Below are positions 1 through 45,204 of a DNA stretch of 45,204 nt, piece after piece. Both the position numbers and the translations under genes were made by a program. Under the pieces are notes generated by a model. The model did no database searches, was not told the DNA's origin, and was given only the letters and a program-made list of their open reading frames with translations. Every line of letters begins with the position of its first letter. Positions within the stretch are counted from its first letter, which is position 1. This stretch comes from Escherichia phage vB_EcoS_011D5, in the sequence record NC_073085.1; one strand, written 5' to 3'.

Positions 1-115
1 ACCCATCGCTACGCCGTGCGGGAATTTCTTCTTGAGACGCGCCAGATCATGCTTGTACTGGTATGCGACGAGCAACGGCGCGCCGTTCAACTCCTCCACG
101 ATACTTTCCAGCGCG
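1..115. repeat. Terminal overlap: 1-115 identical to 45090-45204 (circular closure or terminal redundancy)
   Basis: Exact sequence identity of the window ends; helicase ORF is continuous across the junction. Confidence 0.9.
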
Positions 116-1083
116 TCCAGTTTAGCGTCGTGAATTTTCACCCATTCGTCGGTGCGCTCGCCGTCTTCGTCGACTTTATACACGGCCCCGGAAGCAAGCT
201 GAAGGCACTTAATAGTCTTCGACGCAGCGTTCGCCGCCTCCACAGTTCCGCTTTCCAGTTCCGCAAATAGCTCCGCTTCGAACTGGTCATAAATCTTGCG
301 GGCTTTCTTCGGCAGGTCCACTACAACCGGCGTATAGATTGGCTTGTCACATCCGAAGTATTCAGCCGCATCAACGGTGAGCGATACGTCAGACAGGCGT
401 TGTTGTATTTCTTTCTCGGAGTTCTTGAGCGGGGCGTGCTGCATAGTGAAGCTGCCAGGCTTAACAGGCTTGCTAATAAACCAGCGATCCGTAAATGCCT
501 TATAGCTACTGCCGAGGCGTTCGCCACCATCGACAAACCACGTCTGACCCCATAGATCTTTCAGTCCGTTTGGTGCGGGTGTTCCGGTTAGGTTAATCCA
601 GCGCTTGACGTGCTTATGTGCGATCGCCGCCAGCGCACGGGCGCGCTTACTTCCCTGCTTGCTTCGATAGCCTTTCAGCTTAGTCGATTCATCGGCAACC
701 ACGACCGTAAAGGGCCACTCGTCGCCGCAATACTCGACAAGCCACTCGACCACATCATAGTTAACACAAACCACGTTAGCGTCGCTCTCAAGCGCAGCGA
801 TGCGGTCCTTCTCTGGCCCGGTGCCGTCTACTACCAGCAAGGCTGGGAAGCGCCATTTCTCCTGTTCTGGGGGCCATGTACCGGACGCAACGCGCAGCGG
901 GGCCAGCACCAGTACGCGGTCCTCCTGGTTGGACAGGATACCGGTCTGGAACATTTTATTCAGTGCCCACATGGTCGCGCCGGTTTTACCCGACCCCATT
1001 GTCGCCCATATATTGCATCGCTTATGCTTGAGGATGAACGCGGTTATCAACTTCTGATATTCGCGGCGTCGGAATCGTGCCAT
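1..1083 (-). CDS. SNF2/DEAD-like helicase, N-terminal part (gene crosses the linearisation point, continues at 45089 down to 44748; ~474 aa in total)
   Basis: Minus-strand frame open from ATG ~1083 to window edge; Walker A ...ATMGSGKTGAT... (~970-1011); DExx-like box VVVADESTKLKGY (~700-780); frame matches C-terminal ORF 44748-45188. Confidence 0.8.
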   Translation of the reverse strand, partial: MARFRRREYQKLITAFILKHKRCNIWATMGSGKTGATMWALNKMFQTGILSNQEDRVLVLAPLRVASGTWPPEQEKWRFPALLVVDGTGPEKDRIAALESDANVVCVNYDVVEWLVEYCGDEWPFTVVVADESTKLKGYRSKQGSKRARALAAIAHKHVKRWINLTGTPAPNGLKDLWGQTWFVDGGERLGSSYKAFTDRWFISKPVKPGSFTMQHAPLKNSEKEIQQRLSDVSLTVDAAEYFGCDKPIYTPVVVDLPKKARKIYDQFEAELFAELESGTVEAANAASKTIKCLQLASGAVYKVDEDGERTDEWVKIHDAKLDALESIVEELNGAPLLVAYQYKHDLARLKKKFPHGVAMG

Positions 1084-41238: not shown

Positions 41239-41730
41239 TTATTTAAGTGCGCTGCGTACCAATTTCTTTTCCATGTTACGGAAATCTTCCTGCGTCATGC
41301 AGATTTTCGATCCGTCCTCGCCAGTTAGCAGGACCATAGGCTGCACATCTTGCGCTACAACCCCAAAATCGCGGGCATTCACCGTCTTGCCCGCGGAAGA
41401 ATGCCCGCCTTTTAGGCTGTCGAATTGTGCTGCCGTTGTATCGATCTGAATCTCGTCATGCACGGTCATGTAAGACTCGCCCAGCAGGGCGGCATACGCC
41501 ACCAGATCCACGATGTTATCTTCCTGGTGCTTACGGTGCTGGCGCACCAGCTTCAGGCAGATCAGGAAGGTCCAGGCTTCTTGCTCGGTAAGGTCGCGCC
41601 CGGTAAGCGCGTTAAACACGGCGGCGACCTGTTTAGCGCTGCGTTCTTCTTTCGCGTTGTCATAGCCGTTTTCTTTCCCGCGCTGTTCCATAGTGGTGGC
41701 GGCGTTTTTGCAGTATTCGTATGCTTTCAC
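41239..41730 (-). CDS. Hypothetical protein (163 aa)
   Basis: ORF-track with GTG start; RBS-like AAAAGGG upstream. Confidence 0.4.
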   Translation of the reverse strand: MKAYEYCKNAATTMEQRGKENGYDNAKEERSAKQVAAVFNALTGRDLTEQEAWTFLICLKLVRQHRKHQEDNIVDLVAYAALLGESYMTVHDEIQIDTTAAQFDSLKGGHSSAGKTVNARDFGVVAQDVQPMVLLTGEDGSKICMTQEDFRNMEKKLVRSALK

Positions 41731-41794
41731 AGTATTACCCTTTTTAGTGAGGGGGCTTTATTGCCCCCGACACGTTTAATATAGTGCAACCAAC

Positions 41795-42265
41795 CTATTG
41801 GTTGCAAGTGAATTTTGCAACGTTTATTGCGTAAATTTTCGGGACCAAATCACCACACGCCCGACGAATTGCCGCGATGTTCTTCTCGCAATCTTCAATG
41901 ATGACCAGTTCCGACACGTCCGCATAGCAGACCATTTTGAACACGGCGCACGCCTTAAACTCTGGCGGCGGGGTGTCGTCCAGCATGTGGCGCATAAACA
42001 ACCGGCCTACCGGGAAGACCTCCAATTGCTCGGCGGTGGTGTCCCAGCATTCTCGCTGCCGGTTGGTCAGATACGCGATCTCGAAGCCTCGCTCTTTGTA
42101 CATGCGCAGCAACGGCAGCATATCCATATTCAGGTCTTCGCGTACGTGCGCCTTGTGCCACTTCGCCCAAAAGGTGGATTTAGTTTTTATACCAGGCACC
42201 AGGTCGGCGCGCGCATCGCTTGAACCGTTAATAACTCCATCCAAATCGCAAATCAGTAATTTCAT
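41795..42265 (-). CDS. HAD-superfamily phosphatase / nucleotidase-like
   Basis: Motif I LICDLDGVI; motif II YLTNR; C-terminal acidic motif IIEDCEKN. Confidence 0.7.
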   Translation of the reverse strand: MKLLICDLDGVINGSSDARADLVPGIKTKSTFWAKWHKAHVREDLNMDMLPLLRMYKERGFEIAYLTNRQRECWDTTAEQLEVFPVGRLFMRHMLDDTPPPEFKACAVFKMVCYADVSELVIIEDCEKNIAAIRRACGDLVPKIYAINVAKFTCNQ

Positions 42266-42486
42266 TTTAGGCTCTCAATAAGGGTGGCTCGGGCGCTACG
42301 CGCGGTGTAAGAGTTGCACACGAAATGACAACGTCGGGTCATGACAAGCCAACCGGTGAGGTCAAGGCCCAGGATGTATTCGGGGCGAGACGCGCGCACC
42401 ACACGATCGCGGCGTGGGTCGATGTTATAGTCTTTTTGCATTTGGTCTACGACCGCGTGGTCGCGGTCAACGATTAAGATATTCAC
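42262..42486 (-). CDS. Small hypothetical protein
   Basis: ORF-track; GTG start overlapping the 3' end of the Dam-like gene. Confidence 0.3.
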   Translation of the reverse strand: MNILIVDRDHAVVDQMQKDYNIDPRRDRVVRASRPEYILGLDLTGWLVMTRRCHFVCNSYTARSARATLIESLK

Positions 42487-42952
42487 GTAGTTCTCCTTCG
42501 CTCATTATTTCAATTTGTGCGCTGCCGATGGGCGGCGCTTCGTCAAAGATTATCAATTGCTGGCACTTGTTATTGCTCGGCCCGACTTCACCGGTTACAG
42601 CATGTATGAATCGGATCCGCCAGTCCAGAAGAATTATCAGGTTTGCAGTCTTCCGGGCCAGCTTCGCCCACTTAGTCGACGTGTCCTGATTCAGTAGCAT
42701 GACGGTCCGGCGTCCGTGCGCTGCGCACTCGACCCACGGCAGCGGATCGGAATACGGCGGATTGCACCACTTCCACCCTTTCAACTCCGACCAGTCCGCA
42801 TCGAGCGCGCTGTGCTCTGCCGTGAAGTAACGCGGCAGCAGGTGGTTTGCGTCGCTCGCCGCCATATCGTAACGGAATCGGTACTTCCGGCGCAGTGGTT
42901 TAAATAAAGCTGGCGGTGTGCGCCAGCTATCTTTTTGCTCATTCTCCGTCAT
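42467..42952 (-). CDS. Phage Dam-type DNA N6-adenine methyltransferase
   Basis: WRTPP...FRYDMAASDANHL...WCNPPYS (NPPY catalytic motif). Confidence 0.8.
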   Translation of the reverse strand: MTENEQKDSWRTPPALFKPLRRKYRFRYDMAASDANHLLPRYFTAEHSALDADWSELKGWKWCNPPYSDPLPWVECAAHGRRTVMLLNQDTSTKWAKLARKTANLIILLDWRIRFIHAVTGEVGPSNNKCQQLIIFDEAPPIGSAQIEIMSEGELREYLNR

Positions 42953-43397
42953 AGTCTGGATCTATCGCATACAGGGCGGTTTTCTTGCCGCTAGACAGCA
43001 CACGTTGGACTCGGGATATCTCCGCCCTACTGAGCGGTCTGCTATCGGAATAGTAGCTGCCGTTTGCACGCCACGCTATACGCACCAGTCCTTCCCGCGG
43101 GATCGAAGACTGGCGGCCTTTGGGGCGCACGTACTCCTCCGCGCGTTTACAATGCTCCCGCAGACCGTCGGCAGTGATGCGGTTTAGCGCCACGCTGGTT
43201 GTGTATCCGGTGCGCTGCATAATACCCATCAACTCATACAGCAGATCGAAGCGCTCCTCTAATTCCTTGCGCGCCTTCTCCTCGCCTTCATAGCTCGCCA
43301 GGTAGGTGTCCGCCAGCGCGTTCGCGCGTTCGGCCTGTTCGCGGGCTTCGAGGCATTGCGCGGCCCAGTAATTTTTTTCTTCTTGTAAAATTTTCAT
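42939..43397 (-). CDS. Coiled-coil hypothetical protein
   Basis: ORF-track, ATG start; helical charged sequence. Confidence 0.45.
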   Translation of the reverse strand: MKILQEEKNYWAAQCLEAREQAERANALADTYLASYEGEEKARKELEERFDLLYELMGIMQRTGYTTSVALNRITADGLREHCKRAEEYVRPKGRQSSIPREGLVRIAWRANGSYYSDSRPLSRAEISRVQRVLSSGKKTALYAIDPDYDGE

Positions 43398-43640
43398 CTA
43401 TTTAGTCTCCGTAGTGCGGATTTCATCGCGTGGAATAAATTTGCCGTCCATCTCCACCCAGCAGACTCCGTATCGCCATTGGGTGTTACGGCCTGTTTGC
43501 TCGGCATACACGGTCTTGCATTCGTAGCGTTCCGTGTAGTAAATAGCCGTCGAAGGTATGCCAATACAACCGGCAATCATGAGGGTGAGTAGCACCCAAA
43601 ATCGAAGGTCGCCGTCGTAGTCGAAAAATAATGATTTCAT
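43398..43640 (-). CDS. Small membrane protein (possible lipoprotein)
   Basis: MKSLFFDYDGDLRFWVLLTLMIAGCIGI; RBS GGAGA; two TTGGTTGCA motifs upstream. Confidence 0.45.
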   Translation of the reverse strand: MKSLFFDYDGDLRFWVLLTLMIAGCIGIPSTAIYYTERYECKTVYAEQTGRNTQWRYGVCWVEMDGKFIPRDEIRTTETK

Positions 43641-43720
43641 CGTGTTGTCTCCGGGTATTAAAAAGGGCGTCCAACCGGACACCCTTAAGATAATGCAACC
43701 AATATGATTATGCAACCAAT

Positions 43721-44044
43721 TTACGAATAAAAATTTGGGTCGCGCGCTACGTCTACCAGATACAGATTGCTCATGCGGTTGCCGTAGTGCCCTGGTGTGC
43801 GCTGGCGGCACACAACGGCGAAGCCTGGGGGAATTGTATTGCCCGTCTCGATAATCCACGCCACGCGTGCGCCAGACAGCGTCTTGCCGTTGTATTCGAT
43901 GCGCGTGCCACCATCGGCAGTGTTAAGGTTGCCAATCTTACAGCCTGTGGACTTCAGGCGAATGACACCGGTCTTGCTGTCGTAGGAAAAAAGCTGATTG
44001 GTCATTGCCACTGAAAAGTCGATTGCGTCGAATGCAGTATTCAT
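43721..44044 (-). CDS. HNH-endonuclease-like protein with substituted catalytic residues
   Basis: Scaffold YDSKTGVIRLKS...GTRIEYNGKTLSGARVAWIIETG resembles phage HNH homing endonucleases, but the usual HRVAW / VDHING positions read ARVAW / VVCRQR. Confidence 0.5.
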   Translation of the reverse strand: MNTAFDAIDFSVAMTNQLFSYDSKTGVIRLKSTGCKIGNLNTADGGTRIEYNGKTLSGARVAWIIETGNTIPPGFAVVCRQRTPGHYGNRMSNLYLVDVARDPNFYS

Positions 44045-44751
44045 TTTAAATTTTCCTCGTTAACCGCTATCGCGAAGCCGCGCGGGGTGAGTGAGCGGAT
44101 TAATTTTGTACGAGCGGATTTACCACCGAGGCGACTATACTGCTTCGAGTACCCATTTTCAACGAAAACAGGTTTCTTCTCTGGCATACGGAAGCCGTTG
44201 CCGGTCCATAAGCAGGTCAGCTTCGGATATGAATCGCGGGCGTTGATGTATTCCGGGAATAACGGGTGCACGTCATCCTCCGGCAGATATCCACCATACT
44301 CCCACGGGTTAAACGAGTGGTCCGGCTTGCGCCATTGGGTCGATAGCACGCTGCGCGGATTCTCAATCATATATGGCACTTCGAAGAAGTCCCCCAGGTA
44401 AGCGGCGATCTTCGCGGTGCGCACCGCCTTAAGCTGAAAGGCCGGGTCTTTGGCCCGCTTGCGCGGGAAAGCTGGCGCACCGCTAACTGCCAGATCCGTA
44501 CACAGCGGGAACGCATATATGATATCCGGCGTACCGAAATCGCCATTCATCGCGCGGTCTACAAAGTCCAGATCGATAAACTCATTGCGATATCGGATCC
44601 CGCGACCATAAATCCGGTAGTCTAGGTACGACCCGTGGTCGGCTTCGGAGTAGTTGAAGCAATAACACTTATGCCCCATCTCGGCAGCACGCTCAATCAT
44701 CAAGCCGCTGCCGTCAAACAATGACCAGATTGTCATTTTAGCAATAGTCAT
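44041..44751 (-). CDS. DNA cytosine-C5 methyltransferase-like protein (short, divergent)
   Basis: Motif I-like LFDGSGLM; motif IV-like AFPLCTDLAVSG (PLC instead of PCQ); motif VI-like MIENPRS; LTPRGF near C-terminus; ATGA coupling to helicase stop. Confidence 0.65.
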   Translation of the reverse strand: MTIAKMTIWSLFDGSGLMIERAAEMGHKCYCFNYSEADHGSYLDYRIYGRGIRYRNEFIDLDFVDRAMNGDFGTPDIIYAFPLCTDLAVSGAPAFPRKRAKDPAFQLKAVRTAKIAAYLGDFFEVPYMIENPRSVLSTQWRKPDHSFNPWEYGGYLPEDDVHPLFPEYINARDSYPKLTCLWTGNGFRMPEKKPVFVENGYSKQYSRLGGKSARTKLIRSLTPRGFAIAVNEENLK

Positions 44752-45204
44752 TTGCGCGCCTTTTTAGCTTTCATGTATTCCATCAAGTCGTCCTGAATAT
44801 CTCGCTTACTGTCGCGACGTTCGGCGACCAGTTCATCCAGTGTCCCGCGCGCCTGGATAATGTAGACGAATACCGGACGAGGGTGTCCGGCTTGCATCTG
44901 GCGAACCGGCCCTATACGCTCCACAATCTGCGAAAAGTGCTCATAGTTCCAGGTGTCTGAGAAGATAGCAAGGTGGTGCCCCCCATCCTGCAGGTTAAGT
45001 CCGTGACCCGCTGACGCTGGGTGTGCAAACATGATGGGGATCTCGCCCCTGTTCCACGCTTCCATATCCTTATTTCCTTGCTTACCCTTACCCATCGCTA
45101 CGCCGTGCGGGAATTTCTTCTTGAGACGCGCCAGATCATGCTTGTACTGGTATGCGACGAGCAACGGCGCGCCGTTCAACTCCTCCACGATACTTTCCAG
45201 CGCG
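44748..45204 (-). CDS. SNF2/DEAD-like helicase, C-terminal part (helicase motif VI-like HPASAGHGLNLQ)
   Basis: ORF-track 44748..45188 has no true start (GTG in-frame) and continues upstream into the duplicated end. Confidence 0.8.
   Translation of the reverse strand, partial: ALESIVEELNGAPLLVAYQYKHDLARLKKKFPHGVAMGKGKQGNKDMEAWNRGEIPIMFAHPASAGHGLNLQDGGHHLAIFSDTWNYEHFSQIVERIGPVRQMQAGHPRPVFVYIIQARGTLDELVAERRDSKRDIQDDLMEYMKAKKARK

What the first reader, a model, noticed from the sequence alone, without database searches (positions are those of the whole stretch)
41795..44751. DNA-modification/nucleotide-processing cluster with a short, divergent C5-MTase-like enzyme
Within 3 kb on the minus strand, translationally coupled to the SNF2 helicase, are a 236 aa C5-methyltransferase-like protein, an HNH-like protein, a Dam-type N6-adenine MTase and a HAD-family phosphatase. 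The C5-MTase-like protein is well below the usual 300-400 aa, has no obvious target-recognition domain, and reads PLC where canonical enzymes have PCQ around the catalytic cysteine. Two MTases of different chemistry suggest active evasion of host restriction; the divergence leaves room for non-canonical specificity or chemistry.
Basis: partly seen in the sequence, partly recalled or inferred. Interest (0 to 1): 0.55.

Follow-up and report, generated by a model that had tools for sequence, protein, structure and literature searches.

The report
Compact phage Dcm-like cytosine methyltransferase cluster
The short "C5-methyltransferase-like" gene belongs to a large, already recognised family of compact phage DNA cytosine methyltransferases, one of which has been shown to make 5-methylcytosine and to trigger a bacterial retron defence, so the cluster is ordinary apart from a private Pro-to-Leu change next to the catalytic cysteine.

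Summary
The window is the complete genome of Escherichia phage vB_EcoS_L-h 1M (Dhillonvirus). The described genes are all there, on the minus strand, tightly packed behind an SNF2-type helicase.

The short length is a family trait: about 1,900 clusters at 50% identity, mostly 200-260 aa. The TRD is only about 34 aa, and motif X appears to be missing.

"PLC" is not a family feature. The consensus is FPPCT, and this isolate alone has a CCG>CTG (P83L) change. Distant members carry E, V or D at that site, so the effect on activity is unknown.

- **Dam:** solid.
- **HAD:** solid.
- **HNH:** rests only on a PHROG hit, and no catalytic His is evident.
- **Non-canonical chemistry:** not supported.

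Verdict: already known, low interest.

The parts
44041..44751 (-). dcm-like gene: 236-aa compact C5-cytosine DNA methyltransferase. Motif I is F12-D-G-S-G16, the catalytic loop is F81-P82-L83-C84, motif VI is E130-N131-P132, K177 is conserved, and motif IX is R219-S-L-T-P-R224. There is no motif X.
44503..44505 (-). Codon 83, CTG (Leu), where every close relative has CCG (Pro). It lies immediately before the catalytic Cys84.
   Evidence: A 41-nt probe hits only this phage's own records. There are 0 hits in IMG/VR. A control probe with CCG hits EC115 at 100%. Among 116 family representatives this position is P 88, E 12, V 10, D 3 and never L.
44748..45204 (-). 3' part of the SNF2-type helicase gene (aa 324-474). 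The 5' part is at 1-1083 on the minus strand. The stop overlaps the dcm start (ATGA).
   Evidence: tblastn of the Oekolampad helicase and the 115-nt terminal repeat. PF00176 E 4e-11. Overlap read and conserved.
43721..44044 (-). 107-aa HNH-like protein. Its start overlaps the dcm stop (ATGA). The expected catalytic His is not evident (VVCRQRTPGHYGNRMSNL).
   Evidence: PHROG 99 E 1.9e-15 only. No Pfam, NCBIfam or PDB hit. Homologues found only in Dhillonviruses. AF2 model unusable, pLDDT 46.
43398..43640 (-). 80-aa small protein of unknown function, hydrophobic by eye and possibly membrane-associated. It is a variable accessory gene.
   Evidence: PHROG 18961 E 6e-52. Annotated CDS. Present in 7 of 15 Dhillonvirus loci.
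42939..43397 (-). 152-aa protein of unknown function. The PHROG label 'DNA ligase' is unsupported.
   Evidence: PHROG 10530 E 5e-90. No Pfam hit. One record notes 'Possible DNA ligase but no evidence'.
42467..42952 (-). 161-aa phage Dam-type N6-adenine DNA methyltransferase with an NPPY motif.
   Evidence: PF05869 E 2.7e-36, 125 bits against a cut-off of 28. TIGR01712 E 8e-25. NPPY read in the translation.
42262..42486 (-). 74-aa protein of unknown function. It overlaps both neighbours.
   Evidence: PHROG 10685 E 1e-45. Conserved in 15 loci.
41795..42265 (-). 156-aa HAD-superfamily phosphatase (DxDG at residues 7-10). It resembles the phosphatase domain of polynucleotide kinase-type or class B acid phosphatase enzymes.
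   Evidence: PHROG 415 E 2.4e-36. PF03767 E 2e-5, below the cut-off. Weak alignment to acid phosphatase 2i33. BASEL annotation 'putative phosphatase'.

Best explanation
The 236-aa protein is a member of a widespread family of compact (about 230 aa) phage orphan DNA cytosine-C5 methyltransferases, the 'Dcm-like' enzymes.

**Proposed mechanism**
- It binds AdoMet with motif I (FDGSG) and the motif II/III residues N33 and D60.
- It attacks C6 of a flipped-out cytosine with Cys84, assisted by Glu130 of the ENP (ENV-type) motif.
- It transfers a methyl group to C5.
- DNA recognition is left to a minimal TRD of about 34 residues (roughly 185-218) plus a family-specific loop (149-176). The motif X helix of canonical enzymes is absent.

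**Context**
- The gene sits in the replication-module gene string (helicase > dcm > HNH-like > ... > Dam > ... > HAD), and the overlapping start and stop codons suggest co-expression.
- The likely role is to methylate replicating phage DNA, probably at CCWGG, alongside Dam methylation, presumably at GATC. This would blunt restriction enzymes that cut those sites.
- The cost is that the enzyme is sensed by retron Ec86/Eco1.
- This isolate carries a private P83L change next to the catalytic Cys. I judge it more likely to leave at least partial activity than to kill the enzyme.

**Shown:** homology, fold, motif conservation, purifying selection and synteny, plus activity of phage K42 Dcm, reported in the literature.
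**Inferred:** activity of this allele, the target sequence and the biological role.
For: - **Family membership.** PHROG 757 E 7e-82. 1,646 word-index homologues, and the 120 best listed are nearly all 225-250 aa apart from a few fragments. 1,901 clusters at 50% identity match the profile, mostly end to end at 200-260 aa.
- **Motif conservation** in 116 representatives: C84 108/116, E130 113, N131 107, P132 114, R141 101, K177 108, R219 106, P223 106.
- **Motif IX.** The C-terminal RSLTPRGFAIAV matches E. coli Dcm motif IX RRLTPRECARLM.
- **Pfam.** 14 of 23 relatives hit PF00145 over motifs I-IV at E<=1, and three pass the cut-off.
- **Experimental link.** Phage K42's 711-bp dcm (C82, E128, K175, K176) raises 5mC in Ec86 msDNA by LC-MS and triggers the retron. 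Mutating CCTGG abolishes defence. It was published as Cell Rep 2024;43:114857, cited. The Hanrivervirus herni orthologue has exactly those residues at those positions and is 54% identical to the window protein, E 2e-86.
- **Selection and context.** dN/dS is 0.04-0.06. Synteny and the ATGA overlap are conserved in 15 Dhillonvirus loci. CCWGG is not avoided: 144 sites against 70 expected.
Against: - The window protein itself gives no Pfam, NCBIfam or PDB sequence hit.
- Leu83 replaces the Pro of the near-universal Pro-Cys dipeptide. It is not seen in any relative examined, so this allele may be impaired.
- By sequence, motif X and a canonical motif VIII R-x-R are not identifiable.
- The CCWGG specificity of the family was assumed from E. 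coli Dcm and supported only by msDNA site mutants. It was not mapped genome-wide.
- The tested enzyme is only 54% identical.
- No methylation data exist for this phage.
Confidence: 0.85

Rival explanations
1. The gene is a family member, but this allele is a hypomorph or dead. P83L distorts the catalytic loop so that little or no 5mC is made. The change could be a sequencing or assembly error, a neutral laboratory mutation, or an escape mutation selected on a host that senses phage Dcm activity, such as retron Ec86/Eco1 (native to E. coli B/BL21).
For: - The change is a single CCG>CTG transition at a site where all 15 Dhillonvirus loci and 117 of 120 best hits have Pro. It is found in no other phage record or IMG/VR contig.
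- Only one of the four differences from the 98%-identical cluster representative lies at a conserved position, and it is this one.
- Loss of dcm function is exactly how phage K42 escapes retron Ec86.
- From my own recollection of mutagenesis work on M.EcoRII (not retrieved here), replacing the Pro of the Pro-Cys motif lowers activity without abolishing it.
Against: - Position 83 is not invariant in the wider family: E 12, V 10 and D 3 of 116 representatives. The FPVCT/WPVCT subclade keeps all other catalytic motifs, so a hydrophobic residue can be tolerated there.
- The K42 escapers were deletions, frameshifts or upstream changes, not active-site missense changes.
- The isolation host of this phage is unknown.
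Confidence: 0.3
2. The family performs non-canonical chemistry. One option is transfer of a carboxymethyl group from Cx-SAM, as CmoX does, using host CmoA. Another is a different C5 adduct, giving a hypermodifiable base rather than 5mC.
For: - hhalign aligns motifs I-IV of the family to CmoX at E 7e-4, and both have a PPC motif.
- E. coli supplies Cx-SAM through CmoA.
Against: - The published CmoX signature is SPPC plus Arg350 in motif X. The family has FPPC, and its sequence ends just after motif IX, so no motif X Arg can be identified.
- There is no CmoA or CmoY homologue in the window.
- The K42 Dcm produced 5mC by LC-MS in a cmoA+ host.
Confidence: 0.03
3. The protein acts on RNA rather than on DNA. 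It would be a DNMT2-like tRNA m5C methyltransferase that tunes translation during infection.
Against: - DNA MTases score higher than DNMT2.
- The K42 Dcm methylates msDNA, and the effect depends on a CCTGG DNA site.
- The gene sits among DNA replication and modification genes.
Confidence: 0.03

Closest known systems
Phage K42 / BASEL 'Dcm-like C5 cytosine methyltransferase' (PHROG 757; trigger of retron Ec86/Eco1; Wang et al., bioRxiv 10.1101/2023.08.16.553469, Cell Rep 2024;43:114857)
   Same: - Same length: 711 bp, 236 aa.
- Same motif layout and the same catalytic residues (C82/E128/K175 correspond to C84/E130/K177).
- 54% identity over the full length to the Hanrivervirus herni orthologue.
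- Same annotation in sister Dhillonviruses Oekolampad, welsh and HH3.
   Different: - Leu instead of Pro before the catalytic Cys.
- K176 of K42 corresponds to Leu178 here. That position is variable in the Dhillonvirus clade.
- The genomic neighbourhood differs: only dcm is shared between Dhillonvirus and Drexlerviridae loci.
E. coli Dcm / M.EcoRII-type C5-MTases (Pfam PF00145)
   Same: - Motifs I, IV, VI and IX are recognisable.
- Motif IX is nearly the same string (RxLTPR).
- The presumed target is the same, CCWGG.
   Different: - Half the size: 236 against 472 aa.
- TRD reduced to about 34 aa.
- No motif X (QxGN).
- No N-terminal extension.
- Below Pfam detection.
- hhalign to Dcm is not significant.
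DNMT3A/DNMT3B catalytic domains
   Same: - Motif IV context PC(N/T)DLS is alike.
- Both have unusually small TRDs.
   Different: - 12-16% identity.
- DNMT3 enzymes keep motif X and act as oligomers on CpG.
- No evidence here on the oligomeric state of the phage enzyme.
CmoX, the DNA cytosine C5-carboxymethyltransferase of Synechococcus phage S-B43 (PDB 8YF3; PMC12783734)
   Same: - Phage-encoded C5-MTase homologue with a PPC catalytic motif.
- The N-terminal 86 residues align at E 7e-4.
   Different: - 372 aa with a full TRD and motif X.
- Signature Ser95 and Arg350 are absent or not identifiable here.
- No cmoA or cmoY neighbours.

Membership tests
Compact phage Dcm-like C5-MTase family (PHROG 757) | Full-length match to the family profile at a length of about 225-250 aa | tested here: met
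   PHROG 757 E 7e-82, residues 2-234. The profile of relatives matches representatives end to end, mostly 200-260 aa.
Compact phage Dcm-like C5-MTase family (PHROG 757) | Family-invariant residues (C84, E130-N131-P132, R141, K177, W182, R219, T222-P223, G225) | tested here: met
   All are present in the window protein. Their conservation is 87-98% in 116 representatives.
Compact phage Dcm-like C5-MTase family (PHROG 757) | FPPCT catalytic loop (Pro at position -1 to the Cys) | tested here: not met
   The window has FPLCT. Pro occurs in 88 of 116 representatives, E/V/D in 25, and Leu in none.
Compact phage Dcm-like C5-MTase family (PHROG 757) | DNA cytosine-C5 methylation activity | not testable with these tools
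   Shown only for phage K42 Dcm by LC-MS of msDNA. The Hanrivervirus herni protein, which shares K42's length and named residues, is 54% identical to the window protein.
Canonical C5-cytosine DNA methyltransferases (Pfam PF00145) | Pfam PF00145 gathering score | tested here: not met
   No hit for the window protein or its 98% relative, even at E<=10. 14 of 23 relatives hit at E<=1, and 3 pass the 22-bit cut-off, over motifs I-IV only.
Canonical C5-cytosine DNA methyltransferases (Pfam PF00145) | Class I MTase fold with C5-MTase topology | tested here: met
   [not shown]
Canonical C5-cytosine DNA methyltransferases (Pfam PF00145) | Motif I FxGxG (AdoMet binding) | tested here: met
   F12-D-G14-S-G16. 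It aligns to M.HaeIII FSGAGG and DNMT3B LFDG.
Canonical C5-cytosine DNA methyltransferases (Pfam PF00145) | Motif IV Pro-Cys dipeptide with catalytic Cys | tested here: inconclusive
   Cys84 is present and aligned to the catalytic Cys of HaeIII, DNMT3B and CmoX. The preceding Pro is Leu in this isolate.
Canonical C5-cytosine DNA methyltransferases (Pfam PF00145) | Motif VI ENV (Glu that protonates N3) | tested here: met
   E130-N131-P132, invariant in A2. It corresponds to E128 of K42 Dcm.
Canonical C5-cytosine DNA methyltransferases (Pfam PF00145) | Motif VIII Q-x-R-x-R | tested here: inconclusive
   No R-x-R string. The conserved K177 (K175 of K42) was placed there by the K42 authors through superposition on DNMT3A. 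I could not verify this without model coordinates.
Canonical C5-cytosine DNA methyltransferases (Pfam PF00145) | Motif IX RxLTxRE | tested here: met
   R219-S-L-T-P-R224-G against E. coli Dcm R-R-L-T-P-R-E. The comparison was made by eye.
Canonical C5-cytosine DNA methyltransferases (Pfam PF00145) | Motif X (Q-x-G-N-x-V) and a TRD of about 80-100 aa or more between motifs VIII and IX | tested here: not met
   The protein ends 6 residues after the motif IX stretch (RSLTPRGFAIAV). Only about 34 residues separate strand 179-184 from motif IX. hhalign finds no C-terminal match to Dcm or CmoX.
CmoX DNA cytosine C5-carboxymethyltransferases | SPPC motif plus Arg (R350) in motif X, usually with cmoA/cmoY neighbours | tested here: not met
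   The signature comes from PMC12783734 and was verified in the S-B43 sequence. The window has FPLC, no motif X, and no CmoA or CmoY homologue.
Phage Dam N6-adenine MTase (PF05869) - the 161-aa protein | Pfam gathering score and NPPY catalytic motif | tested here: met
   125 bits against a cut-off of 28. CNPPYS is in the translation. TIGR01712 gives 87 bits, below its equivalog cut-off of 97.
HNH endonuclease - the 107-aa protein | beta-beta-alpha-metal motif with catalytic His and Asn/His | tested here: inconclusive
   Only PHROG 99, E 1.9e-15. No Pfam hit even at E<=10 and no PDB hit. Where HNH_3-type proteins have D-H, the conserved sequence reads C-R (comparison by eye and from memory of the HNH_3 consensus). 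The AF2 model is unusable.
HAD-superfamily phosphatase - the 156-aa protein | N-terminal DxD nucleophile motif and a HAD profile match | tested here: met
   D7-L-D9-G in MKLLICDLDGVI. PHROG 415 E 2.4e-36. PF03767 E 2e-5, 24.6 bits, just under the cut-off of 27.

The most novel reading that the evidence does not exclude
Two readings are not excluded by the evidence.

1. The compact family lacks motix X and has a TRD of only about 34 aa. It may recognise DNA in a way unlike canonical Dcm, for example as a DNMT3-like dimer or using the family-specific 149-176 loop. Its true specificity may not be simply CCWGG, since this has never been mapped genome-wide.
2. The private P83L allele of this isolate may be a naturally selected hypomorph that lets the phage evade Dcm-sensing retron Ec86/Eco1 while keeping the gene.
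Probability: 0.15. Interest if true: 0.5.

Novelty: already known. Interest (0 to 1): 0.2.

Why it matters
There is little new for discovery. The genome is in GenBank, the family is annotated in sister phages, and one family member (phage K42 Dcm) has been characterised as an active Dcm that triggers retron Ec86/Eco1.

Three practical points remain:
- The GenBank record of this phage mislabels the methyltransferase as an HNH endonuclease and truncates the helicase.
- The family is a minimal natural C5-MTase scaffold (about 230 aa, no motif X, tiny TRD). Its recognition mechanism and exact target have not been determined.
- The Pro>Leu allele beside the catalytic Cys is a ready-made natural test of how much that residue matters, and of whether phages can tune Dcm activity to escape Dcm-sensing retrons.

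Tried and rejected
- **Sequence searches of the 236-aa protein.** Pfam, NCBIfam and PDB gave nothing significant. Profiles of relatives against PDB gave only E of about 1 to HaeIII and DNMT3B over motifs I-IV.
- **hhalign of the family profile.** Against E. coli Dcm it was not significant. Against CmoX it aligned only the N-terminal 86 residues. The C-terminal motif assignment (motif IX present, motif X absent) therefore rests on string comparison by eye.
- **Model coordinates.** They are not exposed, so I could not check which residue fills the M.HhaI N304 / CmoX R350 position or the R-x-R position.
- **Tool limits.** The afdb50 fold library was unavailable.
- **HNH-like protein.** The homologue search returned only 5 Dhillonvirus clusters. 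The AF2 model had pLDDT 46 and was not used for fold search.
- **Literature.** A search for mutagenesis of the Pro in the Pro-Cys motif found nothing usable, so that point rests on memory. No paper describes this phage beyond a name in a list.
- **Rejected: P83L explains the missing Pfam hit.** The PPC-carrying 98% relative also has no hit.
- **Rejected: the short length is a truncation.** The profile matches end to end across the family, and dN/dS is 0.04-0.06.
- **Rejected: the HNH-like protein is a required specificity partner of the MTase.** Other phage families carry dcm without it, and K42 Dcm alone works in vivo.


Full report
**Identity of the window**

The region 41700-45204 is 100% identical to Escherichia phage vB_EcoS_L-h 1M (OM262540.1 / NC_073086.1, genus Dhillonvirus). 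That record is 45,204 bp, the same length as the window. A further 147 phage records cover at least 80% of the region at 80-96% identity, so the cluster is a standard part of Dhillonvirus genomes.

The first and last 115 nt of the window are identical. The helicase gene is split across the ends: aa 1-361 lie at 1083..1 and aa 324-474 at 45203..44751, both on the minus strand. This is an assembly overlap of a circularly permuted genome.

**Check of the observation**

The helicase is SNF2-related (PF00176, E 4e-11). Its TGA stop overlaps the ATG of the 236-aa gene as ATGA. That overlap (GTGA in one locus) is conserved in all 15 Dhillonvirus loci fetched from IMG/VR. The 236-aa stop overlaps the 107-aa start in the same way. 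The remaining junctions are overlaps of 4-20 nt or direct abutment, apart from one 80-nt gap (coordinates).

Family assignments:
- The 161-aa protein is a phage Dam (PF05869, 125 bits against a cut-off of 28, with NPPY present).
- The 156-aa protein is a HAD phosphatase (PHROG 415, E 2e-36; sub-threshold PF03767; DLDG motif).
- The 107-aa protein is 'HNH' only through PHROG 99 (E 2e-15). Pfam, NCBIfam and PDB give nothing.
- Where I expect the D-H of HNH_3-type enzymes, the conserved sequence reads C-R. That comparison was by eye against a consensus recalled from memory.
- Its AlphaFold model was too poor to use (pLDDT 46).

**What the 236-aa protein is**

It has no Pfam, NCBIfam or PDB sequence hit. 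It does match PHROG 757 'DNA methyltransferase' at E 7e-82. Sister phages annotate the orthologue as a Dcm-like or C-5 cytosine methyltransferase, while this phage's own record calls it 'putative HNH endonuclease'.

The family is large and uniformly short:
- 1,646 word-index hits, and the 120 best listed are nearly all 225-250 aa, apart from a few fragments.
- 1,507 of 50,697 phage records. They span Dhillonvirus, Drexlerviridae, the Jersey-type Salmonella phages, T4-like JSE, large (~137-150 kb) coliphages such as CarlMeissner and Phapecoctavirus, phiKO2 and 9NA.
- 1,901 clusters at 50% identity, whose best 150 are matched mostly end to end at 200-260 aa.

The short length is therefore a family trait, not a truncation. 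dN/dS against Dhillonvirus orthologues is 0.04-0.06.

**Fold and motifs**

An AlphaFold model built on 23 sequences is confident (pLDDT 89.3, pTM 0.89).
- Foldseek against the PDB returns DNMT3A/3B methyltransferase domains first, at E about 1e-6.
- BFVD returns phage cytosine methylases.

The recognisable motifs are:
- I: F12-D-G-S-G16.
- III: D60.
- IV: F81-P82-L83-C84.
- VI: E130-N131-P132.
- IX: R219-S-L-T-P-R224, compared with E. coli Dcm RRLTPRE.

These residues are 87-98% conserved across 116 representatives.

The protein ends 6 residues after the motif IX stretch (RSLTPRGFAIAV), so I find no motif X (QxGN). Only about 34 residues lie between strand 179-184 and motif IX, where canonical enzymes have the TRD. 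This part rests on string comparison.

**Experimental anchor**

A preprint reports that phage K42 (a KarlJaspers-like Drexlerviridae phage) escapes retron Ec86 by disrupting a 711-bp dcm gene (10.1101/2023.08.16.553469; published as Cell Rep 2024;43:114857, per the reference list).
- Expression of that Dcm is toxic only with the retron present.
- A C82A/E128A/K175A/K176A mutant is inert.
- LC-MS shows high 5mC in msDNA only with the wild-type Dcm.
- Changing the msDNA CCTGG site abolishes defence.

The Hanrivervirus herni orthologue is 236 aa, has C82, E128, K175 and K176 at exactly those positions, and is 54% identical to the window protein (E 2e-86). The window protein therefore belongs to a family in which DNA C5-methylation has been demonstrated. 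The CCWGG specificity was assumed from E. coli Dcm and supported by site mutants. It was not mapped.

**The 'PLC' feature**

The family consensus is FPPCT, which aligns with M.HaeIII PPCQ, CmoX SPPCS and DNMT3B SPCN.

The change is one transition (CCG>CTG) and is private to this isolate:
- All 15 Dhillonvirus loci and 117 of 120 best hits have [F/Y]PPCT.
- A 41-nt probe centred on the codon hits only this phage's own records and nothing in IMG/VR.
- The same probe with CCG hits the closest relative, EC115, at 100%.
- It does not explain the missing Pfam hit, because the PPC-carrying 98% relative has none either.

Its effect is uncertain. Among 116 family representatives the position is P 88, E 12, V 10 and D 3. 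A subclade with FPVCT/WPVCT keeps every other catalytic motif. I therefore put roughly 0.3 on a substantially impaired allele. One attractive but untested cause would be selection on a host carrying a Dcm-sensing retron.

**Non-canonical chemistry**

The one natural precedent is CmoX of Synechococcus phage S-B43. It is defined by SPPC plus Arg350 in motif X and usually has CmoA and CmoY as neighbours (PMC12783734; residues verified). The window protein has FPLC, no identifiable motif X, and no CmoA or CmoY homologue in the genome. The K42 enzyme gave 5mC in a cmoA+ host. I give this reading about 3%.

**Role**

CCWGG occurs 144 times against 70 expected from dinucleotide shuffles. GATC occurs 172 times against 174 expected. 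Neither site is avoided, which is compatible with self-methylation but does not prove it.

The BASEL study reports Dhillonvirus and Drexlerviridae as markedly less resistant to type I and II RM systems than Queuovirinae. For Drexlerviridae it saw no simple link between MTase genes and restriction resistance. Any protection is probably limited to enzymes whose sites overlap CCWGG or GATC. The Dcm also exposes the phage to retron Ec86/Eco1.

Only dcm is shared with other phage families. The rest of the string (HNH-like, 152 aa, Dam, 74 aa, HAD) is Dhillonvirus-specific synteny, with the 80-aa gene present in 7 of 15 loci. I see no evidence that the genes form one pathway rather than a set of co-transcribed early genes.

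**Verdict**

The feature is an already known family. The residual interest lies in the private P83L allele, and in the unmapped specificity and recognition mode of this minimal C5-MTase scaffold.

Noticed in passing
window 1-115 and 45090-45204; helicase at 1-1083 (-) and 44751-45203 (-): The first 115 nt are identical to the last 115 nt. This is an assembly overlap of a circularly permuted genome. The SNF2-type helicase gene is split across the record ends, and GenBank annotates only a 143-aa C-terminal fragment as 'DNA helicase'.
   Followed up: yes
window 44041-44751 (-): The GenBank record OM262540.1 labels the 236-aa methyltransferase 'putative HNH endonuclease', the same label as the neighbouring 107-aa gene. 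Sister phages label it a Dcm-like or C-5 cytosine methyltransferase. This is a likely annotation carry-over error.
   Followed up: yes
whole window: CCWGG occurs 144 times against 70 +/- 8 expected from dinucleotide-preserving shuffles (0 of 100 shuffles reach it). GATC is at expectation (172 against 174). I did not test whether the CCWGG excess is just codon usage (CTG-G / CCA-G).
   Followed up: partly
window 44737-44751 (-): The dcm gene carries a 15-nt N-terminal insertion (ATGACTATTGCTAAA, adding MTIAK) that looks like a partial duplication of the start region. It is shared with 4 of 15 Dhillonvirus loci. The others start directly at the MTIW/MIIW methionine, and all keep the stop/start overlap with the helicase.
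   Followed up: partly
L014 4699-5018 (Escherichia phage SSL-2009a); protein P0125: The HNH-like gene is frameshifted in SSL-2009a (two tblastn pieces, and the annotated 111-aa product has an unrelated C-terminus). This suggests the gene is dispensable or that the record has a sequencing error.
   Followed up: no
window 43398-43640 (-) and 42939-43397 (-); loci L003-L018: The 80-aa gene is present in only 7 of 15 Dhillonvirus loci, and one locus (L012) lacks the 152-aa gene. These are variable accessory slots inside an otherwise fixed gene string. The PHROG label 'DNA ligase' for the 152-aa protein has no support from Pfam or NCBIfam.
   Followed up: partly
L021-L024 (IMG/VR contigs of 8.6-52 kb), about 47-50% identical homologues: A subclade of the compact MTase family has FPVCT/WPVCT instead of FPPCT and YDYTGE instead of FDGSG in motif I, yet keeps all other conserved motifs. 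Other representatives have Glu or Asp before the catalytic Cys. The Pro-Cys dipeptide is therefore relaxed in this family.
   Followed up: partly
window 41239-41730 (-): Just downstream of the cluster is a DUF6378 protein (PF19905, E 2e-9). PHROG labels related families 'phosphofructokinase', which is probably a propagated misnomer.
   Followed up: no
window 42908-42928: A perfect 8-bp GC-rich inverted repeat (AGCTGGCG-GTGTG-CGCCAGCT) scores as terminator-like on both strands. It lies inside the 5' end of the Dam gene, close to its overlap with the 152-aa gene. Its function is unknown.
   Followed up: no
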